From a bacterium (GTDB lineage: Bacteria; Patescibacteriota; Minisyncoccia; UBA6257; GWB1-50-10): a stretch of DNA of 59,843 nucleotides. The position numbers and the translations under genes are program-made. Of the stretch, positions 18,059 to 57,789 are shown one piece after another (the stretch's first letter is position 1; each line of letters starts with the position of its first letter). Location of the stretch: NCBI GenBank assembly GCA_030647415.1, contig JAUSKB010000016.1, positions 1 to 59,843 on the forward strand, written 5' to 3'. The notes below the pieces were generated by a model. The model was not told the DNA's origin, searched no databases, and saw only the letters and a program-made list of their open reading frames with translations.

Positions 18059-18169
18059 GTTTACCCTGTTAGAGATTTACATGCACGCCTTTCAAAATAT
18101 ACCTGTTTGTACTAATACCAGCAGGTATACATCCAAAATGATTCTCTGTAAATCTCTAACAGGGTGAAC
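18059..18169. repeat. 107-bp-class TIR element family F4, copy 1
   Basis: Arms gtttaccctgttagagatttaca / tgtaaatctctaacagggtgaac (1 mismatch). It lies 23 nt upstream of the mrdA ATG. Confidence 0.88.
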
Positions 18170-20503: not shown

Positions 20504-20504
20504 A

Positions 20505-20653
20505 AGAGTAATCGCGAATAATGCTAATTATTGCAAATAATGCGAATGAATGCGCACTCCATTCGCATCAGTATACCTGCTATTCGCATTATTCGCGATT
20601 ACTCTTTTCATTCGAATTATTACCTTTGCTATTCGAATTATTCGCGATTACTC
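20505..20653. repeat. 149-bp complex palindrome family C-prime, copy 1
   Basis: Left arm gagtaatcgcgaataatgc. Two alternative right arms: attcgcattattcgcgattactc and attcgaattattcgcgattactc. It overlaps the last codons of proS. Confidence 0.85.
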
Positions 20654-21897
20654 CCGAGGAGCGCGGGCAGGTCCTTCAGCGCGACGAGCTCAGGCTTCCC
20701 GTTCTTGCGCTCTTTTACCTCCACCTTGTTGTGCGCGAGGGTCTTTTCGGAAACGACGAGGCGTGCGGGGATACCGATGAGGTCGGCGTCCGTGAACTTT
20801 TCCCCTGCCGACATTTCGTGCCGGTCGTCGAAGAGGACCTCCATGCCTTTTTTCGTCAGCGCCTCATACACCTTCTCGGCGTAGGCACGAACCTTTTCAT
20901 CCTCACCGAGCACAACGAGGTGCGCGGCGGCGGGCGCGACACTCCGGGGCCAGACGATGCCCCTATCGTCGTGGTGCACCTCTACGATGGTCCCCACGAG
21001 CCGGTCTACCCCGATACCGTAGGATGCCATGATAACGGGGTGGAGCGCACCCGCCGCATCGCGGTAGCGGAGATTCAGTGGCTCCGAGAACCGCGTGCCG
21101 AGCTTGAAAATATTCCCCACCTCGCTCGTCGCGACGTGCTCCACGACGCCGCCGGGGCATTTGGGGCAGGTGGCGCCGGACTTGAGCTTCGATATCTCCT
21201 TGTTCTCCGCATAGCCGCAGAGCCGGCAAAGCACCGTCTCGTCCTCGCCGGCAGACGTTTCCACCATGAACTCATGCGAGTGCTCCTTAGAGAAGTCGCC
21301 GCCCGATGCCTCCGTGACGAACGCGGTGAGCTCCATGCGCTTGAAAACCTTGAGGTAGGCGTGCTTCACCACTTCGTAAAACTCCGCAAGCGATTGCTCA
21401 TCCGCGTGGAAGCTGTAGAGGTCCTTCATGGAAAACTCCCGCCCGCGCATGAGGCCGGACTTCGCGCGCGCCTCGCTCCGGAACTTCGTCTGTATCTGAT
21501 AGGTCGAAATCGGCAGGTCGGCGTAGGAGAAAATGATATGCGTGCCGATCGCGGCGACAATCTCCTCGTGCGTGGGACCCAGGCCGTACTCCTTCCCTTG
21601 CAGGTCCCTAAACTGGTACATCACGCTCTTCATGCTCTCCCATCGGCCGGTCGCGTCCCATGCGGCGCGGGGATGGAGGGCAGGCATGAGGAGCTCCGAG
21701 GCGCCAAGCGCGTTCATCTCCTCGCGGATGATGCCGATGACCTTCTCGCGGACGCGAAATCCCAAGGGCAGGAAGGTGTGGACGCCCGCCATAAGCTTCG
21801 AGATGAACCCACCCCGCGCAAGGAGCTGCGCGTTCACCGAGACCTCATCCTTCGGGGCCTCTTTGAGCGTGCGGGAGAATAATTTTGACTGCCTCAT
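20638..21897 (-). CDS. proS: prolyl-tRNA synthetase, short form without INS editing domain
   Basis: MRQSKLFSRTLKEAPKDEVSVNAQLLARGGF..., motif 2 FRSEARAKSGLMRGREFSMKDLYSF, motif 3 SYGIGVDRL. Only 419 aa. Confidence 0.92.
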   Translation of the reverse strand: MRQSKLFSRTLKEAPKDEVSVNAQLLARGGFISKLMAGVHTFLPLGFRVREKVIGIIREEMNALGASELLMPALHPRAAWDATGRWESMKSVMYQFRDLQGKEYGLGPTHEEIVAAIGTHIIFSYADLPISTYQIQTKFRSEARAKSGLMRGREFSMKDLYSFHADEQSLAEFYEVVKHAYLKVFKRMELTAFVTEASGGDFSKEHSHEFMVETSAGEDETVLCRLCGYAENKEISKLKSGATCPKCPGGVVEHVATSEVGNIFKLGTRFSEPLNLRYRDAAGALHPVIMASYGIGVDRLVGTIVEVHHDDRGIVWPRSVAPAAAHLVVLGEDEKVRAYAEKVYEALTKKGMEVLFDDRHEMSAGEKFTDADLIGIPARLVVSEKTLAHNKVEVKERKNGKPELVALKDLPALLGSNRE

Positions 21898-22046
21898 GGA
21901 GTAATCGCGAATAATGCTAATTTAACTCAAATAATGCGAATAAATGCGCTCTATTCGCATTATTACCTCTACAATTCGCATTATTAGCGATTACTCTCTT
22001 CATTCGCATTATTATATCTGCAATTCGCATTATTAGCGATTACTCC
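21898..22046. repeat. 149-bp complex palindrome family C-prime, copy 2
   Basis: Same organisation and orientation as 20505-20653, and roughly 80 percent identical by eye. It abuts the proS ATG. Confidence 0.85.
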
Positions 22047-22047
22047 T

Positions 22048-22079
22048 TATAGTACCCAAATTTCCGCATTCGGCAACTT
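22048..22079. repeat. 32-bp direct repeat, left flank of the hicAB cassette
   Basis: tatagtacccaaatttccgcattcggcaactt; matches 22814-22845 at 30/32 positions. Confidence 0.85.
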
Positions 22080-25419: not shown

Positions 25420-26481
25420 CTACAGCAGTTTCCCCACGTCCTGCACGGTGACGATGGCCATGAGGAGAAGGAGGGCGGCGAACCCGACGCCGTTTATGGC
25501 TATCTGTACTCGGCGCGGGATGGGGCGCCGAATGAGCTTTTCAACAAGCAACACGAGGACCCGGCCGCCGTCCAAGGCCGGAAACGGAATCAGGTTCAGG
25601 ATGACCAGGTTCAGCGAGATGAGGGCGAGGAGCTGGAAAAAGTAGACCGCGCCGAGCTCGCCCGTGCGGACGGCAAAGCTCACAATACCGACCGGCCCGC
25701 TCACCTTCTGGAGCACGCCGGGCTCCGTAAAAACATTTGTGAGGAGGTACCAGAAGCTCGATGCCACCTCCCCGAGCGTCCGGAAGGTCTGGAAGAAGGC
25801 CTCGGCAATCGCCTGGTGAATCGGGAGGGCCGGAAACCCGATGGAGGTGAGCGCAATACCGAGTGAGCCCTCGCCCGGCGGCGGGGTCGCCCGCCCGACG
25901 AGCGTGACGGTGCGCGTCCCGCCCGCACCGGTGAGTTCAAGCGAGAGCGTCTTCCCCGCCGCGGACCTGGCGAGCGCGACGAATGCGTCGGCGTCTATTG
26001 GGTCCGCGAGCGCCGTCTCTCCCCATGTGGCGCGGGCGATGACATCACCCTGCACGATGCGTGCTTCAGCCGCGGGCGAACCGGACGAGACGCCACCCAC
26101 GATGAGATGCTCCGGCGCGCCGGCGGCGAAGACACCCGTCAAAATTACAAATCCGAAGAGGACGTTCATCGCTACACCCGCAAGGAGAATACCGATCCGC
26201 TTCCAGAGTGGTTTCGCTCCAAAGCGCCGTTCCGGCTCATCGCCCACCTCCTCTTCCGACTTCCCAGCCGGCTGTTCCCCGTGGATGCGCACGAACCCGC
26301 CAAACGGCAGGGCGTTCACGCTGTATGTCGTCTCGCCCACCGTCCGGCTCCAGAGCCGCGGCGGGAACCCGATACCAAACTCGTCCACGCGCACTCCGGC
26401 CGCCTTTGCCGCCAAAAAATGGCCCAGCTCATGGACCAGGATGACGAGCGACAAACCGATGATGGATAAAAAAATAATCAT
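25420..26481 (-). CDS. rseP: RIP metalloprotease RseP (site-2 protease, M50)
   Basis: HELGHF zinc motif in the first TM helix, a PDZ-like middle region, and the C-terminal motif LNLIPFPALDGG. Confidence 0.92.
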   Translation of the reverse strand: MIIFLSIIGLSLVILVHELGHFLAAKAAGVRVDEFGIGFPPRLWSRTVGETTYSVNALPFGGFVRIHGEQPAGKSEEEVGDEPERRFGAKPLWKRIGILLAGVAMNVLFGFVILTGVFAAGAPEHLIVGGVSSGSPAAEARIVQGDVIARATWGETALADPIDADAFVALARSAAGKTLSLELTGAGGTRTVTLVGRATPPPGEGSLGIALTSIGFPALPIHQAIAEAFFQTFRTLGEVASSFWYLLTNVFTEPGVLQKVSGPVGIVSFAVRTGELGAVYFFQLLALISLNLVILNLIPFPALDGGRVLVLLVEKLIRRPIPRRVQIAINGVGFAALLLLMAIVTVQDVGKLL

Positions 26482-26482
26482 A

Positions 26483-26572
26483 ATTCCTAATTTCTAATTA
26501 CCAATTTCTAATTACCAATCACAAACCAGAAATCCCCATTGGATATTAGAAATTGGAAATTAGTAATTTTAT
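26483..26572. repeat. spacer-filling imperfect palindrome (ctaat/attag words)
   Basis: ctaatttctaattaccaatttctaattaccaat ... attggatattagaaattggaaattag. The arms are colinear. It fills the gap between the rseP start and the frr stop. Confidence 0.75.
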
Positions 26573-26574
26573 CT

Positions 26575-27123
26575 TTACTCTCTAATCTCCCCTTCCTTCT
26601 TCTCGACCAGCGAGTCAATGAGCTTGTTCGCCGTATCCACCGCCTCCTGGATCTGGTCCTTGAACATGAACTTCCGATCCTCAGGCACCTCGCCATCGGA
26701 GAATCCCTGCTGGACCGACTTATTCGCCTCATCGCGCGCGTGCCGGATCTGGATGCGGTGGTCCTCCGCGAGCCGTTTCGTGTGCTTCACAAGCTCCTCG
26801 CGCCGCTCCTCGGAAAGTTCCGGGAGCCGCACCCGGACGGTAAGCCCATCCGCGGTCGCGCTCACATGGAGTGAGGAGGTTTCGATCGCCTTTATGATGC
26901 CCGGTATCGCTTCTTTATCCCACGCTTGGATGACGATGTCCCGCGGCGGCATGACGCCAACGGAGGCAACCTGCTTCAGGGGCAGGAGCTCCCCGTAGTA
27001 CATGACCCTCAGGTCCTCCACCAGCCCCGGCGAGGGCCGCCCCGTGCGGATTCCGGCAAACTCCTTCGTGAGACTGTCAGTGATGGGCTTCAGTGCGGCT
27101 CGAAAATTTTCGATGCTAAACAT
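26575..27123 (-). CDS. frr: ribosome recycling factor
   Basis: 182 aa; ...EFAGIRTGRPSPGLVEDLRVMYYGELLPLKQVASV... Confidence 0.93.
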   Translation of the reverse strand: MFSIENFRAALKPITDSLTKEFAGIRTGRPSPGLVEDLRVMYYGELLPLKQVASVGVMPPRDIVIQAWDKEAIPGIIKAIETSSLHVSATADGLTVRVRLPELSEERREELVKHTKRLAEDHRIQIRHARDEANKSVQQGFSDGEVPEDRKFMFKDQIQEAVDTANKLIDSLVEKKEGEIRE

Positions 27124-28020: not shown

Positions 28021-28150
28021 AAATCCTAAATCCTAATTTCTAAACTCTAAACAAATTCGAAACTCTAAATCTCAAACAATGCGAAGGGCTCTGAATCCGT
28101 TTCGAATTTCGTGCTTGGGATTTGTTTAGAATTTAGGATTTAGTGCTTAG
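28021..28150. repeat. spacer-filling imperfect palindrome (ctaaa/tttag words)
   Basis: aaatcctaaatcctaatttctaaactctaaacaaattcgaaac ... gtttcgaatttcg..gatttgtttagaatttaggattt. It fills the gap between the holB start and the mreB2 stop. Confidence 0.75.
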
Positions 28151-28153
28151 AGT

Positions 28154-29161
28154 TTACCTTTTAGAGAGCAGTGTCCGCTTGTAGACATCGAGGTGGTTTA
28201 AAATGGTGGCCGTCCCCTTCGCCACGCATAAAATCGCGTCTTCCGCCACATAGGCGGCGACGCCGAGCGAGCGCTTGAAGAACTCCTGAAGGTCACGGAG
28301 CTGGGCGCTACCGCCGGACAGGATAATCCCCTTCTCCATGATGTCGGCGGCGAGCTCCGGCGGCGTCACATTGAAGACGGACTGGACCGCGTTCATGATC
28401 TCCACGAGGTGGGGATTGATGGCCTCCGAAACCTCGTTCGACGTGATGGTAAGGTCTTTCGGGAGCCCCGAGGGGAGGTCTCGGCCGCGCACCTTCATCT
28501 CGATCTTCGAGCGGTTCGAAAGCGCCGTCCCCACCCCAATCTTCACGTTCTCCGCCGTCGTGTCCCCGATGGCAAGCCCATATTTCTTCCGGATATAGTC
28601 GCTGATGGACTGGTCGAACCGGTTTCCGGCGACCCGAAGCGAGGACCAGGTCACGATGCCGCCCAGGGAGATGACGGCAACCTCCGTCGTGCCGCCACCC
28701 ATGTTCACAATCATATTCCCCTCCGCCGAGTGGATGGGGATGCCCGCGCCGAGTGCCGCGAGGAGCGGCTCCTTCACGAGGTAAACCTCGCGCGCACCCG
28801 CCTCCTTCGCCGCGTTCATCACGGCGCGGTACTCGGTCGAGGTAATGCCCGCCGGCACCGAGATGACCACCTCGGGCCGGAACAGGTTCAGGGAGCCGAT
28901 GCTCTTCGCAATGAAGTACTTCAGCATCGCCCGCGTGATGTAGTACTCGGCGATGACACCATCTTTCAGGGGCCGGTAGGTCACGATGTTGTCCGGCGTG
29001 CGGCCGACCATCTCCTTCGCCTCGGTGCCCACGGCGAGCACGGTGTTGTCGGGCAGTCGGAGTGCGACGGCCGTCGGCTCGTTGATGACGATACCCTTGT
29101 CCGGCAGGAAGACAATCGTGTTCGTCGTGCCGAGGTCGATGCCAATCTTGCGGATGAACAT
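28154..29161 (-). CDS. MreB/Mbl paralogue (second actin-like rod-shape protein)
   Basis: [18 protein letters not shown]..., NMGGGTTEVAVISLGG, SGGSAQLRDL. Confidence 0.93.
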   Translation of the reverse strand: MFIRKIGIDLGTTNTIVFLPDKGIVINEPTAVALRLPDNTVLAVGTEAKEMVGRTPDNIVTYRPLKDGVIAEYYITRAMLKYFIAKSIGSLNLFRPEVVISVPAGITSTEYRAVMNAAKEAGAREVYLVKEPLLAALGAGIPIHSAEGNMIVNMGGGTTEVAVISLGGIVTWSSLRVAGNRFDQSISDYIRKKYGLAIGDTTAENVKIGVGTALSNRSKIEMKVRGRDLPSGLPKDLTITSNEVSEAINPHLVEIMNAVQSVFNVTPPELAADIMEKGIILSGGSAQLRDLQEFFKRSLGVAAYVAEDAILCVAKGTATILNHLDVYKRTLLSKR

Positions 29162-35467: not shown

Positions 35468-36214
35468 CTAGCGTTTCTTCTTCGTCTTCCCGCTTGGCGC
35501 TTCAAGTGAGACGGTGGGCGTCACTTCGACGCCTGCAACCTTCTCGAAATGGTCCTTTAGGATATTGCCTGCCTTATGGAGCGCTTCGGACGGCGTGATG
35601 GAACCATCCGTCTCGATCTCGAGCTGGAGCCGATTGTAGTCCGTCTGGTCGCCCACCCGCATATTCTCCACTATGAACGAGACACGGACGATTGGCGAAA
35701 AGATTGCGTCGAGCACGATGGTGCCGACCGGAAGCCGCTCAAGCCGACGCGCCTCCGCCGGGACGTAGCCGAGCCCCTTCTCGACTGTGAGCTCCACGTC
35801 GAGATCAGCCGATTTCTTGGTGAGCGTCGCGAGATGTAATGGTGTGTTGATGACCCTCGCAAACGTCGTCGATTCAATGTCTTCGGCGGTCACTGCCCGC
35901 TCGCCCTTCGCGTGGAGCGTGAGTACTTGCGGCTCGTCCGCAAAAAAGTGGAATCGAACCTGCTTCAGGTTCAGTATGAACTCGACCACATCTTCCATCA
36001 TGCCTGGAATTGTCGAGAACTCGTGGTCGACCCCCTTGACTTTGATTTGCGTGATGGCGGCGCCGGGCAACGACGAAAGCAGGGTTCGCCGGAGCGCGTT
36101 CCCCAGCGTGGTGCCGTACCCGGTGTACAGTCCTTCGATGTGGAATACGCCGATATTCTGCTCCTCGGAGACCTTTTTGATGACGACGGTGTCACTGACG
36201 TGTGTGTATTTCAT
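35468..36214 (-). CDS. rpoA: DNA-directed RNA polymerase alpha subunit, N-terminal domain only
   Basis: Canonical alpha-NTD (GYGTTLGNALRRTLLSSLPGAAIT...). The ORF ends at 248 aa (...EAPSGKTKKKR*) with no alpha-CTD. Confidence 0.9.
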   Translation of the reverse strand: MKYTHVSDTVVIKKVSEEQNIGVFHIEGLYTGYGTTLGNALRRTLLSSLPGAAITQIKVKGVDHEFSTIPGMMEDVVEFILNLKQVRFHFFADEPQVLTLHAKGERAVTAEDIESTTFARVINTPLHLATLTKKSADLDVELTVEKGLGYVPAEARRLERLPVGTIVLDAIFSPIVRVSFIVENMRVGDQTDYNRLQLEIETDGSITPSEALHKAGNILKDHFEKVAGVEVTPTVSLEAPSGKTKKKR

Positions 36215-36319
36215 CCCGTTAGAAATTTAAACATATTCGTTGATTTTTTGTATACGACTGTTTTTTGGAAACATGATTTTATTGATTCACCAATCCCGCG
36301 TAAATTTCTAACGGGATGA
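36211..36319. repeat. TIR element family F4, copy 2
   Basis: Perfect 19-bp arms tcatcccgttagaaattta / taaatttctaacgggatga. The rpoA ATG (36212-36214) lies inside the left arm. Confidence 0.9.
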
Positions 36320-36321
36320 AT

Positions 36322-38163: not shown

Positions 38164-38274
38164 TGATACAAATATACTAATGGTACGAATGATACTAATC
38201 ATACGAATGGGAATTCGTTGGTGTTATTAGTATTATTCGTATCATTCGCATGAATTCGTATATTGGTATCGCAC
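38164..38274. repeat. palindrome family C, copy C3
   Basis: gatacaaatatactaatggtacgaatgatactaatcatacgaatggg ... ttagtattattcgtatcattcgcatgaattcgtatattggtatc. It fills the gap between the rpsM start and the rpmJ stop. Confidence 0.88.
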
Positions 38275-38387
38275 TAGCCCTGCCTCTGCTTATGCTTCTT
38301 GTTCACACAAATAACGAAGACACGACCACGGCGTCTGACCGTTTTGCATTTCATGCAGATTTTCTTTACTGATGAGCGTACCTTCAT
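38274..38387 (-). CDS. rpmJ: 50S ribosomal protein L36
   Basis: Not in the ORF track (too short). The minus strand encodes [37 protein letters not shown], canonical L36 in its usual place between infA and rpsM. Confidence 0.9.
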
Positions 38388-38490
38388 CCTGTTAGAGTTT
38401 TACACGCAATCCAACTGCGTGTAAAAAGTTTTTCGTTTGGCAAACAAGTTTCCATAGGATTCGTGGGTTTGTAAAACTCTAACAGGATGA
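38384..38490. repeat. TIR element family F4, copy 3
   Basis: Perfect 21-bp arms tcatcctgttagagttttaca / tgtaaaactctaacaggatga. The rpmJ ATG (38385-38387) lies inside the left arm. Confidence 0.9.
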
Positions 38491-38502
38491 ATGGAACCCT
38501 TT

Positions 38503-38898: not shown

Positions 38899-40611
38899 CT
38901 ACTCCACCACGACCGTGATTTTCCGGGAATCGTTCGGCGCCCGGCGGACCCAGAACGGCCACAGATGCACGGTTGCCTTCGAGATGCCGGGAATGTCTGA
39001 AAGCATTGAGTTGAGCTTCGTTTCATCCTTGCCCAGTATGAGCGTGGTAAGTGCAGTGCTATCGAGCACATACCGGAGCGCTACCGTGCCGGATGCCGCG
39101 ACCGTGAGTGTACCACGATCGAAGTCGACTGTTGGCACCTCGAACGACGCATCGATCGAGTCCACGGTGAGCGACGAGGACTGCTGCGCCGCCGCACGCA
39201 CCGCCCGTGCGCCAACCGCCTCCTTGAACATGCGGTCATCAAAGACAATCTGCTTGAGCGACGCCTCACCGAACAACCGAAACGTACCGGAATCGTCCCC
39301 CGACGAGCGGAGGCGGCGCAGAACGACGAACCGCGTTGCGTCACGGAGCTCCGTAAAATGCTCATTTGCGGTGAGGAGCACCAGCTCGCTCACGAGCGCA
39401 TCACGGAGCGACGCATCGAGCGACTGCACCGCCCTCGCCTCCTCTTCCTTCGTGGGCGCTGCCCGTTCGCCCATGAAACCGCCCCGGAGTGCGTCCGGCG
39501 CCGCCGCGGTGAACGTATCATATTTCGGCGTACCCTGGAATCCCGGAATCCGCCATCCGTCGCTCGCAGGGACATTATGCGCCTCCCCGGCCGCATCAGC
39601 CGTCACCGAAACAGTCGTCGTGGACGATTGGATGGTTCCCCCAGAAACCCGTGCACCGGGAATGACCGATCGCTGGTTTAAGCGGAACACCGTGCCCTCC
39701 GGCGAGACAAACCGGGTCGTTGCGACCAGCACTTGCGGTTCCGAACTGAACGCGTTCGTCACCACGAGTGTTCCCGACGCCTTCGTGGCCACACGTTCCG
39801 TCCCTGCCGTCGGGAAGGTGAGCTCCAACGTGCGCCGTGCGTCGAACGACTGTGCAGGCAGCACGATGCGCGTGCCGGTACTCTCGGGCGCAGTGACACG
39901 GACCGAGGCGTCGATCAATTCCATGAACGGGATGGGAATCCGTGCGGCGCGAATCGTGACGGTCGCGCGCGGCACCACCGCGGTCGCCACCCACCAGCCT
40001 CCCCCGAGTACCGCGGCGGCGCATACGGAAATCACCAGGACGCGGAACCAGTGCGGTGACCGCTTGGGACGCTCCGGCTCCGGCTCTGGAACCGCGGCAG
40101 GTTGTGTGTCCTTCGTCGAACGTTCGCTGTTTTCAATTTCGAGTTTTGACTCTTCGCGCTCAACTTCTTGACGTTCGATATCAGACGTTAGACGATCTGC
40201 GGCAGATTCCACCGCTTGCGCATTCAATCCACCTCGCCCGCCTCGCCGAGACGTCGAGTCGAGGCTGGGCTGGAGCCGCGACGAAGCGGACCCGACGAGT
40301 GGGCGAGTCGAGGCGGGCCGTGCGATGATATCGGAAACAGCCCGCTCCTTCGAGTGGAAGAATGCGTTGCGGGATGGGATCCCGGCGAGCGACGCGAGTT
40401 CGAGGATATGGTCGTCCGCCGACTCGATCATGAGCTCCTTCCCCGCGTGCTCGGCTTCCCGGCGCAAGAGGTGGAAATTCTGCACCGAAACGCCAATGTC
40501 GGCTCCGGACGGGATGGTAAGCATAATCCTCGTGGAATCCTCGGTAAGGATCTTTTCCACGATTGCCGGGAGGCTATCCCCGCGCGCAATGAGTATTTTT
40601 TTCTCGGTCAT
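38899..40611 (-). CDS. hypothetical bitopic envelope protein carrying an in-frame family A element
   Basis: 570 aa: a cytoplasmic N-domain, one TM helix (VLVISVCAAAVLGGGWWV), and a large beta-rich C-domain. The insert ...SASSRLQPSLDSTSRRGGRGG... is element A3. Confidence 0.65.
   Translation of the reverse strand: MTEKKILIARGDSLPAIVEKILTEDSTRIMLTIPSGADIGVSVQNFHLLRREAEHAGKELMIESADDHILELASLAGIPSRNAFFHSKERAVSDIIARPASTRPLVGSASSRLQPSLDSTSRRGGRGGLNAQAVESAADRLTSDIERQEVEREESKLEIENSERSTKDTQPAAVPEPEPERPKRSPHWFRVLVISVCAAAVLGGGWWVATAVVPRATVTIRAARIPIPFMELIDASVRVTAPESTGTRIVLPAQSFDARRTLELTFPTAGTERVATKASGTLVVTNAFSSEPQVLVATTRFVSPEGTVFRLNQRSVIPGARVSGGTIQSSTTTVSVTADAAGEAHNVPASDGWRIPGFQGTPKYDTFTAAAPDALRGGFMGERAAPTKEEEARAVQSLDASLRDALVSELVLLTANEHFTELRDATRFVVLRRLRSSGDDSGTFRLFGEASLKQIVFDDRMFKEAVGARAVRAAAQQSSSLTVDSIDASFEVPTVDFDRGTLTVAASGTVALRYVLDSTALTTLILGKDETKLNSMLSDIPGISKATVHLWPFWVRRAPNDSRKITVVVE
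40232..40319. repeat. GC-rich palindromic element family A, copy A3
   Basis: Core identical to A1/A2. The right end gggcgagtcgaggcgggcc is the reverse complement of the A2 left end. Confidence 0.88.
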
Positions 40612-40612
40612 T

Positions 40613-40717
40613 TACCCTGTTAGAGTTTTACAGACACACAAATATCTCACAAAGTTTTGTTCGCGCAATAACAAATTTTTATATGCAATGGATTATGTGT
40701 AAAACTCTAACAGGGTA
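40613..40717. repeat. TIR element family F4, copy 4
   Basis: Perfect 20-bp arms taccctgttagagttttaca / tgtaaaactctaacagggta. The left arm starts 2 nt from the ATG of 38899..40611. Confidence 0.9.
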
Positions 40718-40734
40718 GACCCTTCTGTTTTGTA

Positions 40735-40756
40735 TGTAAACTTCTAACAGGGTGAA
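40735..40756. repeat. solo F4 arm
   Basis: tgtaaacttctaacagggtgaa, an extra right-type arm 18 nt after copy 4. Confidence 0.75.
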
Positions 40757-40773
40757 TGTTCTTTATAATACAA

Positions 40774-42073: not shown

Positions 42074-42182
42074 GTTTACCCTGTTAGGGTTTTACACACA
42101 AATTTTTCCGGATAAAAACCTATGTTCTGACACAAAAAAAACACCAGGACGCGGATTGCTCGTAAAACCCTAACGGGGTATA
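42074..42182. repeat. TIR element family F4, copy 5
   Basis: Arms gtttaccctgttagggttttaca / cgtaaaaccctaacggggtatac. It lies 11 nt upstream of the ATG at 42063. Confidence 0.85.
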
Positions 42183-42250
42183 CCGTAGACAGTAACGCGT
42201 ATACAGTCACCATCTTCCTGTGTCTCTCGTTTCTTCTCTCTTGTCGCTGT

Positions 42251-50643: not shown

Positions 50644-51522
50644 TTAACGCGCGGTGAAAACCTGCAACCCCAACCCGCCCAACCGCACCTCAATTGTCCC
50701 CCGCTCGTCCGTGCGAAAAATGGCGGCGCCCGCGGCGCGGAGCCGCGCGAGCGTTTCGGACGTCGGGTGGCCGTAGCTATTCTTCCCGACTTCAATGACG
50801 GCGACCGCGGGGCGGAGCGCGCGGAGAAACTCTTCTGATGAGGAAAACTTCGACCCGTGGTGGCCGACTTTCAGAATATCCACGGGACTTACGCCCGCGC
50901 GGACGAGTGTCCGCTCGACCGGCGCCCCAGCGTCGCCGGTGAAGAGGGCGGAAACGCCGCCGCTCTCGACGCGCGCGACGAGCGTCGTATCGTTCAGGTC
51001 ATCCGAGCGAAGCAGGTCTGGCGTCGGCGAAAGTATGCGAACCGTACCGCCGCTCGTCCGAATACGGTCGCCCGCTCCGAGCTCGACCATACGGATGCCA
51101 CGCTCCTCGATGACCCGGATGAGCTCGCGGTACGCATCGGTATCCCGCGACCGCCCCGAAGAGAGGAAGGCGCCGACATCATACTGCCGGAGTACCTCGA
51201 TAAGCCCGCCAAAGTGGTCCTCTTGCGGATGGGTCATGAGCACCAGGTCGATATAGCGGTCGGTCGGGGCGAGCGCGCGTCCCAGTTCCCGGAGCACCGC
51301 GCCGGTCGGCGGCCCGCCGTCAATGAGGAGCTGTACGCCGCCGGCCTGCCCGCCTCCGGCGGGGAATTCCACGAGTTCGCTATCCCCCTGCCCCACGTCG
51401 AGAAAGAGAAATCTCGTTTCGGCGGATGACGCAAGCACTCCCCGCCACACAACGATATCGAGCGCGAGGAGGGCGAGCGCGAGTATGAGGATTTTTTCTT
51501 TATGTTTCTCAAGTATGCGCAT
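50644..51522 (-). CDS. ComEC-type metallo-beta-lactamase domain protein (separate ORF)
   Basis: FLDVGQGDSELVEF, LVLMTHPQEDHFGGL, KVGHHGS. It overlaps the upstream comEC channel ORF by 14 nt. Confidence 0.85.
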   Translation of the reverse strand: MRILEKHKEKILILALALLALDIVVWRGVLASSAETRFLFLDVGQGDSELVEFPAGGGQAGGVQLLIDGGPPTGAVLRELGRALAPTDRYIDLVLMTHPQEDHFGGLIEVLRQYDVGAFLSSGRSRDTDAYRELIRVIEERGIRMVELGAGDRIRTSGGTVRILSPTPDLLRSDDLNDTTLVARVESGGVSALFTGDAGAPVERTLVRAGVSPVDILKVGHHGSKFSSSEEFLRALRPAVAVIEVGKNSYGHPTSETLARLRAAGAAIFRTDERGTIEVRLGGLGLQVFTAR

Positions 51523-53098
51523 TTTTGAGATGGGTTCTCGTCATCCAGACCACGAATCCGATAAGCACGGCATAGTACGCGAACGCGCCAGCCCACGAAA
51601 TGGCGGGGGCGACGGGCACGGAAATCAAGCTGAATAGCCGGATAACGCCCAACTCATACTGCGTGAGCGCCCATGCGACGAGACCGACGACTTGCGCAAG
51701 GAGAATCGACGCGGCACCGACTGCGGCGGTTAAGAACCCCACACCCATTGTAATCGGCACCGCGGCAAGGATGAGCAGGTTCGCCGCGAGCGAGGTCACA
51801 GACACCATCCCAAACTGCGCAATCAAGATGGGTGCAACCGCGAGCTGGGCTGCGGCAGTCGTGGATAGTGTGGTACGCCAGTCGAGGAAACCTTTGTTCC
51901 CCCGGGACGCCGTAAATCGCCGGAGCACGGGCTCAAGGTAGACGATGCCGAGAAGGGCGACGAAGGAGAGCTGGAACCCCACGTCGAACGCGAGCACCTT
52001 CGGGTTCACGAGAACCATCGCGAGGCCGGCGAGGACGACGGCCTGCCGAACGTCGAAGAGTCGTCCAGTCTCCTTCGCGGCGAGGGCGAGTGACCCCATG
52101 ATTGCGGCTCGAACCACCGATGCCTCCGCCCCTGCCATACACACAAACCCGAGTATCACCGCAAGCGTGACGAGGAACGCTGCTCGACGCCGTCGAGATA
52201 TGAGCCAGAGCGCCGCACCCATGACCGCCTCGCCAAGAATGGTGATGTTATACCCGGAGAGCGCGACAAGGTGCGTCGTGCCGGAGCGCTGCATGGAGTT
52301 CTTTAGCTCATCCGAAAACGCACCGCGCTCCCCCACCGTGAGGCCGGAGAGAAACGAGGCGTCCTCCGCCGGCAGGACGCGCGCGAAGACGCCGGTCACC
52401 GCATGCTTCAGGGAGAAGAGCGCGGACTGAATCGGCGAGCCCTGCCCACGCGCGACGACGGTAACCGTCGGCCGGTTCATCACGCCCGACACACGCTCCT
52501 TCGCAAGGTACCGGGCGTACCCCTCGGGCTCCGGTTGCTTCACGACGCCGGCGAGTGAAACCTCGTCCCCGTACCGGACCGCCGGGTACGGCGGGAGGTT
52601 CGCGATGACCCGCCCGACCGGACGCCAGCCCGACAAAGCCGTTCTGGCGGGGTCGTTCGGGCGGGCCCGCCCTGCTGCGGCTCCGTGAGCTGGCGGATCG
52701 AGCCGGATGAATGCTGAACGGTACCCATCCCGAAGCACCGGATCATTCACCACAACGCCGCGCAACGTCTGGGTTCCCAGTGACACCGCAGAGGCACGGA
52801 ATCGCATGTCGTCGAAGTGGTAGTACACCGACCCCGCGATGATGAGCGGCGCGAGCGCCGCAAGCACAAAGCACCGGCGTCGCATCGCGCCCCAAGGCGA
52901 GACCTCAAGAATCCCCGAGGTCTCGCCTTGGGGCGCGAGTACTGAAATGAAACGTGGCGCAAAGAATCCAACAATAAGCAACACCGCGGCGAGCGCGGCG
53001 ACTATAAGAAGCACCTGATAGGTCAACCCAAGACTCGCGAGGAGGACCCCGAGGAGGAATGTGAGCGCTCCGTAGAACAGCACGCTCGGTGCAGGCAC
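51509..53098 (-). CDS. comEC: DNA internalisation competence protein ComEC/Rec2, channel part
   Basis: N-terminal OB/DUF4131-like region and a polytopic competence domain (...SGTTHLVALSGYNITIL...). It contains in-frame hairpin B5. Confidence 0.85.
   Translation of the reverse strand: MPAPSVLFYGALTFLLGVLLASLGLTYQVLLIVAALAAVLLIVGFFAPRFISVLAPQGETSGILEVSPWGAMRRRCFVLAALAPLIIAGSVYYHFDDMRFRASAVSLGTQTLRGVVVNDPVLRDGYRSAFIRLDPPAHGAAAGRARPNDPARTALSGWRPVGRVIANLPPYPAVRYGDEVSLAGVVKQPEPEGYARYLAKERVSGVMNRPTVTVVARGQGSPIQSALFSLKHAVTGVFARVLPAEDASFLSGLTVGERGAFSDELKNSMQRSGTTHLVALSGYNITILGEAVMGAALWLISRRRRAAFLVTLAVILGFVCMAGAEASVVRAAIMGSLALAAKETGRLFDVRQAVVLAGLAMVLVNPKVLAFDVGFQLSFVALLGIVYLEPVLRRFTASRGNKGFLDWRTTLSTTAAAQLAVAPILIAQFGMVSVTSLAANLLILAAVPITMGVGFLTAAVGAASILLAQVVGLVAWALTQYELGVIRLFSLISVPVAPAISWAGAFAYYAVLIGFVVWMTRTHLKNAHT
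52892..52931. repeat. hairpin family B, copy B5 (in-frame inside comEC)
   Basis: ccaaggcgagacctc-aagaatcccc-gaggtctcgccttgg, a 15-bp perfect stem translated as QGETSGILEVSPW. Confidence 0.88.
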
Positions 53099-54409: not shown

Positions 54410-55783
54410 TCATGTGATAATGCCCCCGCCGAGCATTTCCCCGTCCTCGGAATACCAGACCGCGGACTGGCCGGGGGCGATGAATTTGACAGGAGCAGTA
54501 AAAAGTAAGCAGTAATTGTCCCGACTTTGTCGTGGACTCACGACTCTGTCGGAGGTAATAGGTAATGAACTCCCAGTTACCTCTTGCGTATTACTTATTA
54601 CCAGCTCTCCCCTCACCAACGGCTGCCGGTACCGCACCCGGGCGAGGACGGACATGCTAACATTCTGCAGAATGTTAGCATGTTGCAGCGTGTCATTGCC
54701 ATCGCTTGGCAAATCCGTCATTCTAACATTCTTAAGAATGTTAGAATGACTTCCGTTGATAAAATTTACATTTGCAAGCGTCACCTCCGTGCGGAAGAGC
54801 GCGGGATTGTCAGTGCCCTCGGCGACCATGACGACATTCTTCTCCACATCGATTGCCGAGATGTAGTATGGCGGCGTTTCTGCGTTTCCTTTTTCTTTTG
54901 TCTTTTTTCCTAAGTTGAGCCCATGCCGCTGCCCGATGGTGTACAGATGCGTGCCGCGGTGCTCCCCTACTTTAGTACCATTAGTCGCAATGACGTCCCC
55001 CGGACGGTCAGGGATGTGCCTCGCGACGAAGTCGGCGAGCGCGACGTCGCCCAGGAAGCAGATGCCCTGCGAGTCTTTTTTGTCTGCCGTAGGCAGACCA
55101 GCTTTCCGCGCGATGTCCCGTACTTCGGATTTCAGGAGGTCGCCGACAGGGAAGAGCGCGTGCGCGAGCTGTTTCTGCGTGAGCGTCCACAGGAAATAGC
55201 TCTGATCTTTGTTCTTATCCTTCGCCTCAAATAACGAAAAAGAGGGTGCGGCACCGCGCTTTTGTGAGGGGTAAGACTTGGGCGTCGCCCCGGAGACACC
55301 CCGAACGGAAGCGCGGTGCCGCACCCGTGCATAATGCCCCGTCGCCACATACTCCGCCCCGAGCGAGAGCGCCTTTTCCATGAACAGCCCGAACTTTATT
55401 TCGCGATTACAGACCACGTCCGGATTCGGCGTGATGCCGCGCCGGTACCCGTCAATGAGGTACTCCACCACACGCTGCCGGTACTCCTCCTCGAAGTCGA
55501 ACACGTAGAACGGGATGCCGAGGTGGTTCGCGACGCGCCGCGCGTCCTCCGCGTCTTTTTCCGATGGGCACTCGCCAGCCACGCCGAGCTCGTCAAGCCG
55601 CGCCTGGCTCCAGCACTTTAAGTACACCCCCGTCACGTCGTAGCCCCTAAACCCCTCCGGGGTCGGGCGACCAAACAATTTTTCGAAATTGTTTGGTGTA
55701 GCCCGCTTGAGCAACAACGCCGCAACGGAGCTATCTACCCCGCCCGACATACCTACGAACACTTTTTGTCGTTTGATTGACAT
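54410..55783 (-). CDS. mnmA: tRNA 2-thiouridine(34) synthase MnmA, about 95 aa longer than usual
   Basis: PP-loop VFVGMSGGVDSSVAALLL, DKNKDQSYFLW, and the C-terminal FIAPGQSAVWY. The extra length maps to palindromic DNA inserts. Confidence 0.9.
   Translation of the reverse strand: MSIKRQKVFVGMSGGVDSSVAALLLKRATPNNFEKLFGRPTPEGFRGYDVTGVYLKCWSQARLDELGVAGECPSEKDAEDARRVANHLGIPFYVFDFEEEYRQRVVEYLIDGYRRGITPNPDVVCNREIKFGLFMEKALSLGAEYVATGHYARVRHRASVRGVSGATPKSYPSQKRGAAPSFSLFEAKDKNKDQSYFLWTLTQKQLAHALFPVGDLLKSEVRDIARKAGLPTADKKDSQGICFLGDVALADFVARHIPDRPGDVIATNGTKVGEHRGTHLYTIGQRHGLNLGKKTKEKGNAETPPYYISAIDVEKNVVMVAEGTDNPALFRTEVTLANVNFINGSHSNILKNVRMTDLPSDGNDTLQHANILQNVSMSVLARVRYRQPLVRGELVISNTQEVTGSSLPITSDRVVSPRQSRDNYCLLFTAPVKFIAPGQSAVWYSEDGEMLGGGIIT
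54497..54602. repeat. word-type (taat/ggta) palindromic insert inside mnmA
   Basis: agtaaaaagtaagcagtaattg ... ggtaataggtaatgaactcccagttacctcttgcgtattacttattacc. The same vocabulary occurs in intergenic spacers at 6437-6522, 29172-29272 and 38810-38886. Confidence 0.7.
54654..54749. repeat. two perfect AT-rich palindromes inside mnmA (28 bp and 32 bp)
   Basis: atgctaacattctgcagaatgttagcat (54654-54681) and tcattctaacattcttaagaatgttagaatga (54718-54749). The 96-bp block equals 32 codons. Confidence 0.9.
55243..55325. repeat. GC-rich inverted-repeat insert inside mnmA
   Basis: Perfect 18-bp arms gggtgcggcaccgcgctt / aagcgcggtgccgcaccc, separated by 47 nt. Confidence 0.85.
55670..55697. repeat. 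12-bp-stem hairpin insert inside mnmA
   Basis: accaaacaattt-ttcg-aaattgtttggt; translated as TPNNFEKLFG between the PP-loop and the next conserved block. Confidence 0.8.
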
Positions 55784-56306: not shown

Positions 56307-56348
56307 CGAATATACCATAATCGACGGCCGTCGATTATGGTATATTCG
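56307..56348. repeat. 42-bp perfect palindrome between convergent genes
   Basis: cgaatataccataatcgacgg|ccgtcgattatggtatattcg. Confidence 0.9.
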
Positions 56349-56433: not shown

Positions 56434-57789
56434 CTACGGGCGGGCGCGGAGCAGGTCGAAGACGCGGTACGCCTCCCCTGCCCCCATCGTGATGACCACA
56501 TCCTTCGGACGGAGCGAACGGCGAAGTTCGCTAGCGATTTTTTTGAAACTTCCAACGTACGAAGCATCGGTCTGTACAGCCATTGCAACGGCAAGGTCAC
56601 GCGCATGCACTGTGCCGTCGTCCCGCTCCCGTGCCGCGTAGATATCTGCGAGGAGCACGTGGTCGGCATCGTTGAAGGCGGTCGCGAACTCACTCATGAG
56701 GAGTTTCGTCCGTGAGTAGAGGTGGGGCTGGAAAACGACCCAGATGCGCCGACGGGAACCAAAGTGTTCCCGCGCGGCCTTGAGCGCCGCGCGAATCTCC
56801 GTCGGGTGATGGGAGTAGTCGTCGTAGAAGCGGACGCTGTTCCAAGTTCCCTTGTACTCGAACCGGCGACCGACACCACGAAATGAACGAAGCGACTTTC
56901 GGATTATGGTGTCCGGGATGCCGAGAAATTTCCCGACCGCATACGCCGCCTGCGCGTTCCGGATATTGTGGTCGCCAATAACATTTAAATCTTTCAATCT
57001 TGGTGACTTTGAATAGTCCACGACCTTCGACCCGCGGATGACTTCGCGAATGTGCGGCGCCTTCGGGTCACAAATTACCGCCCCATTTCTCCCGAGTTTC
57101 GCCACAAACTCACGGAAGGCGCGTTTGATGTTCCCGATGTTCTTGTAGTAATCGAGGTGGTCGTTGTCGATGTTGGTGATGACAATGACGCTCGGGTGGA
57201 TATCGAGGAAGGACTTTTTGTACTCGCACGCCTCAGCGACGAGGTAAGGCCCTGTACCGCCAATAAAATTAGTCGCCATCCCGTTAGAAGCCACCCTGCC
57301 CGCAACACGGCTACGGCTGCCACGGGGCGGCCTGCTTCTAACGGGACTCATCATGCCGCCGACGATGACGGTGGGATCGAGTTTCGCATCTCGCAGGAGC
57401 TTCCCTACCATCGCCGTCGTGGTCGTCTTCCCGTGCGCACCTGCAACCGCGATGGTGAACTTCTCGCGCGAAATGATGCCGAGCATCTCGGCGTAAGAAA
57501 GACATGGGATTCTCTTTTGGCGTGCGGCAACAAGCTCGGGATTCGTGTCCGACACCGCCTTCGTGTACACCACCAAGTCCGGCTTCCCAATATCGGACAT
57601 CCGATGTCCGACATGGACGCGGATTCCCTCGCGGATGAGCGCGTCTGTTATGGACGACCGACCGGAGTCCGACCCGGTCACCCGCTTCCCCATGCGTGCG
57701 AGCATCCGTGCGATGGCGGATACCCCCACGCCACCAATGCCGACGCAGTGCACGCTTCGGACCTCCTCAAGTTTTATCCGCTTTAGCAT
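56434..57789 (-). CDS. murC: UDP-N-acetylmuramate--L-alanine ligase with an in-frame palindromic insert
   Basis: VHCVGIGGVGVSAIARMLARMGKRVTGSD, GAHGKTTTT, EACEYKKSF, DDYSHHPTE. The insert is ...SPVRSRPPRGSRSRVAGRVASNG.... Confidence 0.93.
   Translation of the reverse strand: MLKRIKLEEVRSVHCVGIGGVGVSAIARMLARMGKRVTGSDSGRSSITDALIREGIRVHVGHRMSDIGKPDLVVYTKAVSDTNPELVAARQKRIPCLSYAEMLGIISREKFTIAVAGAHGKTTTTAMVGKLLRDAKLDPTVIVGGMMSPVRSRPPRGSRSRVAGRVASNGMATNFIGGTGPYLVAEACEYKKSFLDIHPSVIVITNIDNDHLDYYKNIGNIKRAFREFVAKLGRNGAVICDPKAPHIREVIRGSKVVDYSKSPRLKDLNVIGDHNIRNAQAAYAVGKFLGIPDTIIRKSLRSFRGVGRRFEYKGTWNSVRFYDDYSHHPTEIRAALKAAREHFGSRRRIWVVFQPHLYSRTKLLMSEFATAFNDADHVLLADIYAARERDDGTVHARDLAVAMAVQTDASYVGSFKKIASELRRSLRPKDVVITMGAGEAYRVFDLLRARP
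57279..57346. repeat. F4-type arms flanking a GC-rich centre, inside murC
   Basis: Perfect 13-bp arms tcccgttagaagc / gcttctaacggga (compare the F4 copy 2 arm tcatcccgttagaaattta). Confidence 0.85.

What the first reader, a model, noticed from the sequence alone, without database searches (positions are those of the whole stretch)
55243..55325. GC-rich 18-bp-armed inverted repeat in frame inside mnmA
gggtgcggcaccgcgctt (55243-55260) and aagcgcggtgccgcaccc (55308-55325) are perfect reverse complements, 47 nt apart. The segment encodes ...ASVRGVSGATPKSYPSQKRGAAPSFS..., just before the conserved DKNKDQSYFLW block.

This is a third class of palindromic insert in the same gene.
Basis: seen in the sequence. 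Interest (0 to 1): 0.62.

Follow-up and report, generated by a model that had tools for sequence, protein, structure and literature searches.

The report
Hairpin repeat translated inside mnmA
The inverted repeat is real: it is one copy of a previously undescribed hairpin-forming repeat family scattered through the genomes of tiny groundwater (CPR/Patescibacteria) bacteria. Here it sits in frame in a surface loop of the tRNA-modifying enzyme MnmA, much like the palindromic elements known from Rickettsia.

Summary
The repeat exists, 1 nt to the right of the stated coordinates: perfect 18-nt arms at 55244-55261 and 55309-55326, 47 nt apart, far beyond chance.

It lies in frame in mnmA (54410-55783, minus strand). 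It adds about 25 residues at the tip of a beta-hairpin that is short in some orthologues and in solved MnmA structures.

The diagnostic part is the centre, not the arms. A 33-45 nt core (GGTGTCTCCGGGGCGACGCCCAAGTCTTACCCC) recurs in at least 27 Patescibacteria genomes, with up to 15 or more copies in one 805-kb genome.

- Copies lie between genes and in frame in mnmA, uvrC, recG and a rarA-like gene, in five of six reading frames.
- Each copy has its own arms, which remain complementary (strong covariation).
- Copies read in the mnmA frame carry TAC where the family consensus has TAG, with a compensating change on the paired side. This indicates the element is translated and the hairpin is kept.
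- The core is far more conserved than synonymous sites of the flanking gene (0.86 against 0.46).

Best reading: a new, RPE-like (Rickettsia palindromic element) structured repeat family, tolerated in a permissive loop that is an insertion hot spot. How it moves is unknown.

The parts
54410..55783 (-). mnmA (tRNA 2-thiouridine(34) synthase), 457 aa, the intact host gene
   Evidence: ORF listing. Pfam finds tRNA_Me_trans HUP, PRC-barrel and C-terminal domains. Orthologues named MnmA. PDB relatives 9hlv, 2hma and 2der.
55244..55326 (-). The 83-nt hairpin element: second base of codon R153 to last base of codon P180; peptide (R)VRHRASVRGVSGATPKSYPSQKRGAAP
   Evidence: Covariance model R1 matches 55245-55329(-) at 82.3 bits; this copy was in the seed alignment.
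55309..55326 (-). 5' arm in mRNA sense (GGGTGCGGCACCGCGCTT). It overlaps codons RVRHRAS, of which 'RV(R)' aligns with host residues of orthologues.
55244..55261 (-). 3' arm in mRNA sense (AAGCGCGGTGCCGCACCC), codons KRGAAP
55262..55308 (-). Central 47 nt: inner imperfect stem, internal loops and apical stem-loop GGGC-GAC-GCCC
   Evidence: Fold; family structure.
55268..55300 (-). Family core GGTGTCTCCGGGGCGACGCCCAAGTCTTACCCC, encoding GVSGATPKSYP. It is the 'TAC' variant, which is open in this frame.
55277..55297 (-). The 21-nt stretch GTCTCCGGGGCGACGCCCAAG. It served as the search pattern for the genome copies, so it is identical in them by construction. It is also nearly identical in the 8 mnmA copies found through protein similarity.

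Best explanation
The repeat is one copy of a dispersed, hairpin-forming repeat family of Patescibacteria (class Paceibacteria and relatives).

**Anatomy of a typical copy (about 85-95 nt)**
- An almost invariant apical core: GCTCAGG(C/G)TGTCTCCGGGGCGACGCCCAAGTCTTA(G/C)CCTTCGC.
- About 12-bp arms specific to each copy, differing mostly by transitions, always complementary.
- Often the outer ends GCTCGCC...GGCTCGCT.

**Where copies sit.** They lie in short intergenic spacers and, in frame, inside housekeeping genes.

**This copy.** It sits at the tip of a beta-hairpin of the N-terminal catalytic domain of MnmA. The ribosome reads through it, adding about 25 largely disordered residues. It is kept because the loop tolerates insertions.

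**Shown**
- Family membership.
- Multi-copy, multi-genome distribution.
- Genic copies in several reading frames.
- Covarying arms.
- Stop-codon avoidance with a compensatory change.
- Nucleotide-level conservation of the core.
- Loop location.

**Inferred**
- The element arrived by some form of transposition or recombination (mechanism unknown).
- The perfect 18-bp arms here come from arm-to-arm homogenisation (intrastrand template switching or repair) or from selection for pairing.
- The element has no specific role for MnmA.
For: **Insert.** Alignment of 30 and then 120 orthologues shows short loops in P0066, P0070, P0099 and P0100 and in the PDB MnmAs.

**Family.**
- The 21-nt core pattern returned 81 stretches from the genome collection. 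All but two were Patescibacteria MAGs, from 27 genomes: 15 copies in the 805-kb genome OY970216.1, 11 in JAMCYI01, 9 each in JAKAID01 and JBEKSI01.
- Every copy folds as a long hairpin.

**Covariation.**
- 85.6% of cells are paired against 72.5% in shuffles, and 29-54% when partners are slid.
- 310 double-change cells against 123 in shuffles (0 of 500 shuffles reach it).
- All 14 outer pairs show compensatory changes.

**Genic copies.**
- mnmA in 13 ORFs, uvrC in 3, recG in 1, a rarA-like AAA gene in 1.
- Five of six frames are used.
- In uvrC both orientations occur at the same site.

**Translated, not removed.** All 16 copies read in the GVSGATPKSY frame have TAC or CAC where the family has TAG, and G or A on the paired 5' side. 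Copies in other frames and between genes mostly keep GGCT...TAGCC.

**Core conservation.** Across 8 mnmA copies found through protein similarity, third-position identity at same-residue codons is 0.86 in the core against 0.45-0.47 in the flanks. Overall nucleotide identity is 0.90 against 0.71-0.72.

**Structure.** The AF2 model (pLDDT 81) puts residues 158-180 in coil with pLDDT 49-59, between strands 152-157 and 181-186.

**Mobility or turnover.**
- P0004 has an extra copy at a second mnmA site (74.5 bits, not in the seed) that is absent from its close relatives P0003 and P0005.
- P0071 carries a copy at the same site in another reading frame (37.8 bits).
- Bearers are scattered over at least 8 clusters of an MnmA tree.

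**Context.** A 2026 survey found the highest perfect inverted-repeat density of all phyla in the CPR phyla Ca. Campbellbacteria and Ca. Kaiserbacteria (PMC13155455).
Against: - **Single copy here.** There is only one copy of this family in the 59.8-kb window, so repetition within this organism is not shown.
- **No mobility signature.** No target-site duplication, conserved terminal inverted repeats or parent transposase were found.
- **Divergence is not uniform.** The core is nearly invariant while the arms are strongly diverged. Passively decaying selfish copies should not look like this. The pattern points to selection on each copy, or to a mutational process confined to the arms.
- **Bias towards mnmA.** 12 of the 27 genomes carry the element in mnmA, and in 7 it is the only exact-core copy. 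Mere tolerance does not explain this.
- **No expression data.** No RNA or protein data exist for this organism.
Confidence: 0.65

Rival explanations
1. The hairpin, and especially its invariant apex, is a functional cis-acting nucleic-acid element kept in mnmA by selection. Candidates are a protein- or RNA-recognition site, an mRNA stability or processing signal, or a translation-coupled attenuator, since the hairpin is followed by a U-rich tract. On this reading it is not a merely tolerated selfish insert.
For: - Third-position identity in the core is 0.86 against 0.46 in the flanks.
- The arms differ between orthologous copies in the window, L001 and L005, yet stay paired.
- mnmA site 1 is the most widespread address of the family: 12 of 27 genomes, and the sole exact-core copy in 7.
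- In the mRNA the -62 kcal/mol hairpin is followed by UCUUUUUCGUUAUUU.
Against: - The same core sits between genes and in frame in unrelated genes, in both orientations. A role specific to mnmA is therefore not required.
- About 85% of orthologues lack it and carry other inserts or none.
- The U-tract consists of the Phe/Leu codons of the conserved strand FSLFE. It is absent in half of the mnmA copies.
- The terminator scan does not call it, and the T-bias across the family is weak.
Confidence: 0.2
2. The insert is selected at the protein level: the peptide GVSGATPKSYPSQ is a functional module of MnmA, for example a tRNA or partner contact.
For: - The peptide is shared by 17 of 120 orthologues at the same site.
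- At mnmA site 1 the copies are nearly always read in the same frame.
Against: - Synonymous positions are conserved as strongly as the rest.
- The same DNA is read in four other frames in other genes.
- P0071 reads it in another frame at this very site.
- The segment is predicted to be disordered.
- Most orthologues have unrelated sequence or nothing at this position.
Confidence: 0.05
3. The hairpin is an intervening sequence removed from the RNA (intron-like, or cut and religated), so it never reaches the protein.
For: It is a very stable, self-contained hairpin. CPR genomes are known for insertions in rRNA genes (own knowledge).
Against: - All genic copies keep the frame open.
- Copies in the frame where the consensus has TAG have lost the stop. 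This would be unnecessary if the element were excised.
- At 83 nt, the hairpin as delimited is not a multiple of three, so removing it would shift the frame.
- No Rfam intron or ribozyme matches.
Confidence: 0.03
4. It is a locally generated palindrome (chance, or a template-switch duplication of host sequence) with no relation to any repeat family.
For: - The perfect arms are unique to this locus.
- The outermost arm bases overlap codons that align with host residues RV(R).
Against: - The central 33-45 nt match a family found in at least 27 other genomes.
- Chance expectation for the repeat is negligible.
Confidence: 0.01

Closest known systems
Rickettsia palindromic elements (RPEs)
   Same: - Short palindromic repeats dispersed in small genomes of host-dependent bacteria.
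- Many are inserted in frame in unrelated housekeeping genes and add a peptide without destroying the protein.
- They are also found outside genes.
- The mechanism of spread is unknown.
(Properties as summarised in PMC10969869. Surface location and compensatory changes in RPEs are from my own knowledge of Ogata et al. 2000.)
   Different: - A different phylum, with no sequence relation tested or evident.
- Shorter: about 85-95 nt against about 100-150 nt.
- Here the apex is nearly invariant while the arms are specific to each copy.
- One loop of one gene (mnmA) is hit again and again across lineages.
REP/BIME elements and their RAYT transposases
   Same: GC-rich imperfect palindromes present in many copies, often just downstream of genes, thought to act at DNA or RNA level in supercoiling, termination or mRNA stability (abstract of PMC3733652).
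   Different: - REPs are 20-40 nt, carry a GTAG or CGTC head at one end, and are extragenic.
- Here the element is 2-3 times longer and the conserved part is the loop region.
- No such head is seen at the ends.
- A fifth of the copies lie inside validated genes.
- No RAYT gene was looked for.
Bacterial MITEs (for example ERIC, Correia, Chunjie, QMITE)
   Same: Small non-coding repeats with inverted-repeat ends that fold as hairpins, sit mostly between genes and are occasionally fused in frame to genes (PMC10969869).
   Different: - MITEs are defined by conserved terminal inverted repeats inherited from an IS, plus target-site duplications.
- Here the arms are not conserved.
- The one filled-versus-empty comparison shows replacement of 21 nt and no duplication.
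PARCELs (palindromic amphipathic repeat coding elements of Mollicutes and others)
   Same: Palindromic coding repeats that can be read in either orientation and are spread among small-genome microbes (title and abstract of PMC2996958).
   Different: PARCELs are intragenic tandem repeat modules of surface proteins. Here the copies are single, in housekeeping enzymes and in intergenic DNA.

Membership tests
Paceibacteria hairpin repeat family defined here (model R1) | Conserved apical core GTCTCCGGGGCGACRCCCAAG with flanking GG(C/G)T...TA(G/C)CC stem | tested here: met
   The exact 33-nt core lies at 55268-55300(-). Model R1 scores 82.3 bits, though this copy was in the seed. Independent copies score 60-98 bits.
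Paceibacteria hairpin repeat family defined here (model R1) | Copy-specific arms that pair to give one long hairpin | tested here: met
   18/18 perfect arms at -62 kcal/mol. Family-wide covariation.
Paceibacteria hairpin repeat family defined here (model R1) | Outer ends GCTCGCC ... GGCTCGCT | tested here: not met
   The window copy, like L001 and L005, has GTGCGGC...GCCGCAC instead. It is a diverged sub-lineage.
Rickettsia palindromic elements (as a kind) | Many copies of a palindromic repeat within one genome | tested here: inconclusive
   Related genomes hold 9 to 15 or more copies, but only one copy lies in this 59.8-kb window. The rest of this organism's genome was not available.
Rickettsia palindromic elements (as a kind) | In-frame insertion in unrelated protein genes, with the gene left intact | tested here: met
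   mnmA, uvrC, recG and a rarA-like gene, each with complete Pfam domains on both sides of the insert.
Rickettsia palindromic elements (as a kind) | Insert lies in a surface loop | tested here: met
   In the AF2 model the insert is coil at pLDDT 49-59 between strands 152-157 and 181-186. Solved MnmAs have a short turn at this position.
Rickettsia palindromic elements (as a kind) | Sequence homology to RPE-1 to RPE-10 | not testable with these tools
   No RPE models or sequences were on hand. Rfam gave only sub-threshold chance hits.
MITE | Terminal inverted repeats conserved among copies | tested here: not met
   The arms differ in every copy. This copy's arm 18-mer occurs nowhere else as an inverted pair.
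MITE | Target-site duplication | tested here: inconclusive
   Only one filled-versus-empty pair was available (P0004 against P0003/P0005, site 2). There, 84 nt replace 21 nt with no duplication. A direct CTCGC at both ends of many copies could be either a target or part of the element.
MITE | Parent IS or transposase with the same ends | tested here: inconclusive
   No transposase lies between paired copies. None appears among the 25 commonest Pfam families of 97 neighbouring ORFs. Whole genomes were not scanned.
REP/BIME | 20-40 nt palindrome with a GTAG or CGTC head, extragenic | tested here: not met
   The element is 83-95 nt, with no such head at the ends of the consensus, and this copy is intragenic.
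Intrinsic terminator | GC-rich stem-loop directly followed by a U-run | tested here: inconclusive
   The hairpin is followed by UCUUUUUCGUUAUUU in the mRNA. The scan tool does not call it because its loop limit is exceeded. Across the family, tails average 3.4 T in 10 nt.
Any Rfam family | Score at or above the gathering threshold | tested here: not met
   Best hit was mir-1225 at 31 bits against a threshold of 91.5, a generic hairpin match.
Intervening sequence removed from RNA | No constraint to keep an open reading frame through the element | tested here: not met
   16 of 16 copies in the frame with the consensus TAG have replaced it, with a compensating change on the paired side.

The most novel reading that the evidence does not exclude
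The near-invariant apex is a sequence-specific recognition site, on DNA or RNA, for a trans-acting factor of Paceibacteria. It is under purifying selection at every copy, which would explain an invariant core, covarying arms and synonymous sites frozen inside mnmA. The family would then be a host-level or element-level functional signal (protein-binding, processing, uptake or homing site) rather than decaying junk. The mnmA beta-hairpin loop would be its oldest address or a preferred homing target, and the many other hairpin families piled into the same loop would follow the same logic.
Probability: 0.22. Interest if true: 0.75.

Novelty: new member of a known kind. Interest (0 to 1): 0.55.

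Why it matters
CPR/Patescibacteria have some of the smallest, supposedly streamlined bacterial genomes. Yet this window and its relatives are full of hairpin repeats that sit inside essential genes.

A documented RPE-like family in this radiation bears on several points:
- It would help explain the very high inverted-repeat density reported for Parcubacteria-type phyla (PMC13155455).
- It would help explain the frequent unexplained insertions in CPR proteins.
- It warns annotators and structure predictors that such segments are repeat-derived.
- It gives a natural map of permissive loops in conserved enzymes.
- The contrast between a frozen core and fast, compensating arms offers a tractable case for asking whether such repeats are selfish, structural or recognised signals.

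Tried and rejected
- **Rfam scan of the region:** only sub-threshold hairpin look-alikes such as miRNA precursors.
- **Arm 18-mer searches.** In the window it has no other copy. In metagenome contigs there were 42 single-arm chance hits in unrelated GC-rich DNA.
- **Model R1 on the whole window, filters off:** no second family member. The other hits are generic hairpins from other palindromes.
- **Core pattern in viral contigs:** none.
- **RNA evidence:** no RNA run is listed. The DNA runs are Logan contigs from a groundwater metagenome and show no allele without the insert.
- **Target-site duplication:** not found in the only close filled/empty comparison.
- **Transposase next to or between copies:** none seen.
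- **Bias towards DNA-repair genes, as for uptake sequences.** The genic hosts include uvrC, recG and a rarA-like gene. The 97 neighbouring genes are ordinary housekeeping genes with no clear enrichment. This was not pursued with a background set.
- **Terminator role:** weak and inconclusive.
- **TIGR-Tas arrays:** the paper surfaced in a literature search, but I judged it irrelevant because these copies are single and dispersed, not tandem arrays.
- **P0090 and P0103:** their peptides looked like other frames of the element, but model R1 did not confirm them.
Full report
**1. The observation**

They lie at 55244-55261 and 55309-55326, one base to the right of the stated coordinates. The pairing stops exactly at the outer ends. 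Inward it continues imperfectly to 29-nt arms.

- An 18-mer with up to three mismatches is expected 0.09 times per window.
- The mRNA strand folds at -62.2 kcal/mol, against -39.1 +/- 3.5 for dinucleotide shuffles (z = -6.5, 0 of 200).
- The repeat lies in a 457-aa ORF on the minus strand (54410-55783) that is a complete MnmA: three Pfam domains, orthologues named MnmA, and solved relatives 9hlv, 2hma and 2der.
- The hairpin runs from the second base of codon R153 to the last base of codon P180 and encodes (R)VRHRASVRGVSGATPKSYPSQKRGAAP, just before the invariant DKNKDQSYFLW block.

**2. It is an insert, in a loop**

- In the alignments of 30 and then 120 orthologues, a few proteins have only GHYVRIKNEKLYEAKD-type sequence here (P0066, P0070, P0099, P0100). 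The solved Bacillus-type MnmA has ARVARDEDGTVHMLRGVD. The window protein is 20-25 residues longer.
- An AlphaFold2 model built on the alignment (mean pLDDT 81) places strands at 152-157 and 181-186. Residues 158-180 between them are coil with pLDDT 49-59, so the insert sits at the tip of a beta-hairpin.
- The other low-confidence stretches (292-301, 364-372, 402-420) coincide with further lineage-specific inserts of the same gene.

**3. The repeated part is the centre, not the arms**

The peptide GVSGATPKSYPSQ recurs at the same site in 17 of 120 orthologues that are only 48-63% identical to the window protein. It also recurs at a second mnmA site in P0004.

At the DNA level these orthologues share a 33-45 nt core, GGGTGTCTCCGGGGCGACGCCCAAGTCTTACCC. 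Their arms differ in sequence, yet each pair is complementary.

A scan of one genome per prokaryotic species with the 21-nt pattern GTCTCCGGGGCGACRCCCAAG returned 81 stretches. All but two (an Aminobacter and an Acidimicrobiaceae contig, taken as chance) come from Patescibacteria MAGs, mostly Paceibacteria/Minisyncoccia, Jorgensen-, Wolfe- and Brennerbacteria.

| Genome | Exact-core copies |
|---|---|
| OY970216.1 (805 kb) | 15 |
| JAMCYI01 | 11 |
| JAKAID01 | 9 |
| JBEKSI01 | 9 |

The 88 distinct copies have a common anatomy:
- often GCTCGCC at the 5' end;
- an arm of about 12 nt that varies mostly by transitions;
- the core GCTCAGGCTGTCTCCGGGGCGACGCCCAAGTCTTAGCCTTCGC;
- the complementary arm;
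- GGCTCGCT at the 3' end.

Each copy folds into one long hairpin of -37 to -75 kcal/mol.

**4. Covariation**

The test used an alignment of 73 copies and a 25-pair structure.

| Measure | Observed | Control |
|---|---|---|
| Cells forming standard pairs | 85.6% | 72.5% (column shuffles); 29-54% (partners slid) |
| Cells changed on both sides | 310 | 123 (0 of 500 shuffles reach it) |
| Outer-helix pairs with compensatory changes | 14 of 14 | - |
| Apical helix | invariant | - |

The model built from this alignment (R1) finds no second member in the 59.8-kb window with filters off. It recognises independent copies at 60-98 bits in other loci.

The arm 18-mer of the window copy occurs nowhere else as an inverted pair. 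The 42 hits in metagenome contigs are single arms in unrelated GC-rich DNA without the core. The arms are therefore private to this locus and the core is the family signature.

**5. Where the copies sit**

About half lie in short ORFs only, that is, probably between genes. Examples are the copies on both sides of uvrB in L014 and after pcm in L027.

Of 27 ORFs that contain a copy, Pfam validates 18:
- 13 in mnmA;
- 3 in uvrC;
- 1 in recG;
- 1 in a rarA-like AAA gene.

The element is read in five of six frames: GVSGATPKSYPSQ, SGCLRGDAQVLAF, LRLSPGRRPSLSLR, RLRLGRRPGDSLS and AKAKTWASPRRQPER. In uvrC the same inter-domain site holds it in sense (L011, L066) and antisense (L076) orientation.

**6. 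Translated, with the hairpin kept**

The family consensus has TCT TAG CC in the frame used in mnmA.
- All 16 copies in long ORFs read in that frame have TAC or CAC instead.
- On the paired 5' side they have GGGT or GAGT instead of GGCT. The base pair is therefore kept while the stop is removed.
- Copies in other frames and between genes mostly keep GGCT...TAGCC.
- The extra copy at site 2 of P0004 avoids the stop as CAG.

This is hard to reconcile with removal of the element from the RNA. It indicates that both an open frame and the pairing matter, or that only a pre-existing G/C-swapped subfamily survives in that frame.

**7. The core is conserved at the nucleotide level**

Eight mnmA copies were found through protein similarity rather than through the DNA pattern.

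| Region | Third-position identity at same-residue codons | Overall nucleotide identity |
|---|---|---|
| 13-codon core | 0.86 | 0.90 |
| 43 conserved codons on either side | 0.45-0.47 | 0.71-0.72 |

The three most similar copies (window, L001, L005) share the outermost GTGCGGC...GCCGCAC but differ in the rest of the arms. Each keeps its own pairing.

Three readings fit this: the core is under nucleotide-level selection in each copy, it is repeatedly refreshed (re-insertion or conversion), or the arms mutate unusually fast and are re-paired by intrastrand templated repair. I cannot separate these.

**8. Turnover and hot spot**

- In the close trio P0003/P0004/P0005 (about 88% column identity), P0004 has an additional 84-nt copy at a second mnmA site, where the other two have 21 nt of other sequence. 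This is a replacement without a target-site duplication.
- At site 1, P0004 and P0005 carry what looks by eye like a strongly diverged copy plus a nested hairpin. R1 does not score it.
- P0071 carries a family copy at site 1 in a different frame (37.8 bits).
- On a rough neighbour-joining tree the element-bearing MnmAs fall into at least 8 separate clusters.
- Only about 4 of 120 orthologues have an empty site 1. The rest hold 10-60 residues of diverse sequence, and several recurring peptide types are also scattered over the tree.
- Other small hairpins are nested inside the core itself in L009, L013 and L026.

I read this as a permissive loop that acts as a sink, or possibly a target, for the many hairpin repeat families of these genomes. 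Whether insertion is targeted is not shown.

**9. What I could not find**

- No Rfam family and no copy in viral contigs.
- No RNA data for this organism. The window comes from a groundwater metagenome.
- No transposase beside or between copies.
- No clear terminator signature.
- No paper describing in-frame palindromic repeats in CPR bacteria.
- A 2026 survey reports that Ca. Campbellbacteria and Ca. Kaiserbacteria have the highest density of perfect inverted repeats of all phyla (PMC13155455). That fits what is seen here but does not describe these elements.

**10. Comparison with known systems**

The closest known kind is the Rickettsia palindromic elements. These are dispersed palindromes frequently inserted in frame in unrelated housekeeping genes and also present outside genes (PMC10969869).

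The present family works like an RPE in those respects. It differs in these:
- it comes from another phylum;
- it is shorter;
- it has an invariant apex with copy-specific arms;
- it shows a striking persistence in one loop of mnmA: 12 of 27 genomes, and the only exact-core copy in 7.

It does not meet the definitions of a MITE (no conserved terminal repeats, no duplication seen) or of a REP (length, no GTAG/CGTC head, intragenic copies).

**11. Verdict**

The thing itself is a copy of a new RPE-like structured repeat family of Patescibacteria. It is translated as a disordered loop extension of MnmA. Its mechanism of spread and any function of its conserved apex remain open.

Confidence in this reading is about 0.65. 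The main rival, at about 0.2, is that the apex is a functional recognition element maintained by selection.

Noticed in passing
window 55670-55697, 54652-54683, 54717-54750, about 54516-54600 (all inside mnmA): mnmA holds other, unrelated palindromic inserts.
- A repeat with 12-nt arms in the segment encoding ATPNNFEKLFGRPTPEGFRG.
- Two perfect 32- and 34-nt palindromes encoding HANILQNVSM and HSNILKNVRM.
- A further lineage-specific segment (..SPRQSRDNY..).
The same peptides recur in scattered orthologues, so they probably represent other repeat families.
   Followed up: partly
window 52885-52938 (inside the comEC-like ORF 51509-53098, minus strand): Inverted repeat with perfect 22-nt arms and a 10-nt spacer, in frame in a Competence/DUF4131-type membrane protein, encoding ..APQGETSGILEVSPWGA...
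   Followed up: no
window 57279-57346 (inside murC, 56434-57789, minus strand): Inverted repeat with 24-nt arms (79% complementary) inside murC, in a segment (..SRPPRGSRSRVAGRVASNG..) that looks like another in-frame insert.
   Followed up: no
window 56307-56348: Perfect 42-nt palindrome CGAATATACCATAATCGACGG|CCGTCGATTATGGTATATTCG between a small membrane-protein ORF and murC.
   Followed up: no
window 18059-18169, 36210-36320, 38383-38491, 40609-40758, 42074-42183: Five copies of an element of about 110 nt with conserved 20-23-nt terminal inverted repeats (TTCATCCTGTTAGAGTTTTACA ... TGTAAAACTCTAACAGGATGAA). It looks more MITE-like than the mnmA element.
   Followed up: no
window 20504-20653, 21881-22063, 38186-38248; also 26468-26575 and 28021-28155: Further AT-rich inverted-repeat families, such as GAGTAATCGCGAATAATGCTAAT and its complement, in several copies.
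   Followed up: no
L009 (7135-7254), L013 (4818-4937), L026 (6554-6639): A second small hairpin (for example CCCCGTACTACAACTTCGTTGTAGTACGGGG) is nested inside the core right after CCCAAG, possibly with a duplicated CAAG. The peptide of P0092 shows the same kind of nesting in mnmA.
   Followed up: partly
L011 and L066 versus L076 (uvrC): The same inter-domain site of uvrC, between the UVR motif and the RNase H-like domain, carries the element in opposite orientations in different genomes. This could be independent insertion or in-place inversion between the arms.
   Followed up: partly
MnmA orthologues P0001-P0120, loop between GHY and KDQSYF: Only about 4 of 120 orthologues have a short loop. 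The others hold 10-60 residues of diverse, recurring peptide types (for example RNTKNIRKYEKEIKPISYIRKKFVFRS, ELRIKDKKPSFIIRHS, KNCKIKILKNF..NNQQSSNLSIFQS). This makes the loop an insertion hot spot for many families.
   Followed up: partly
window 55227-55243 (mRNA sense, directly 3' of the hairpin): The hairpin is followed in the mRNA by UCUUUUUCGUUAUUU (the codons of SFSLF), giving a terminator-like arrangement inside the coding sequence. It is probably a by-product of Phe/Leu codons, because half of the other mnmA copies lack it.
   Followed up: partly
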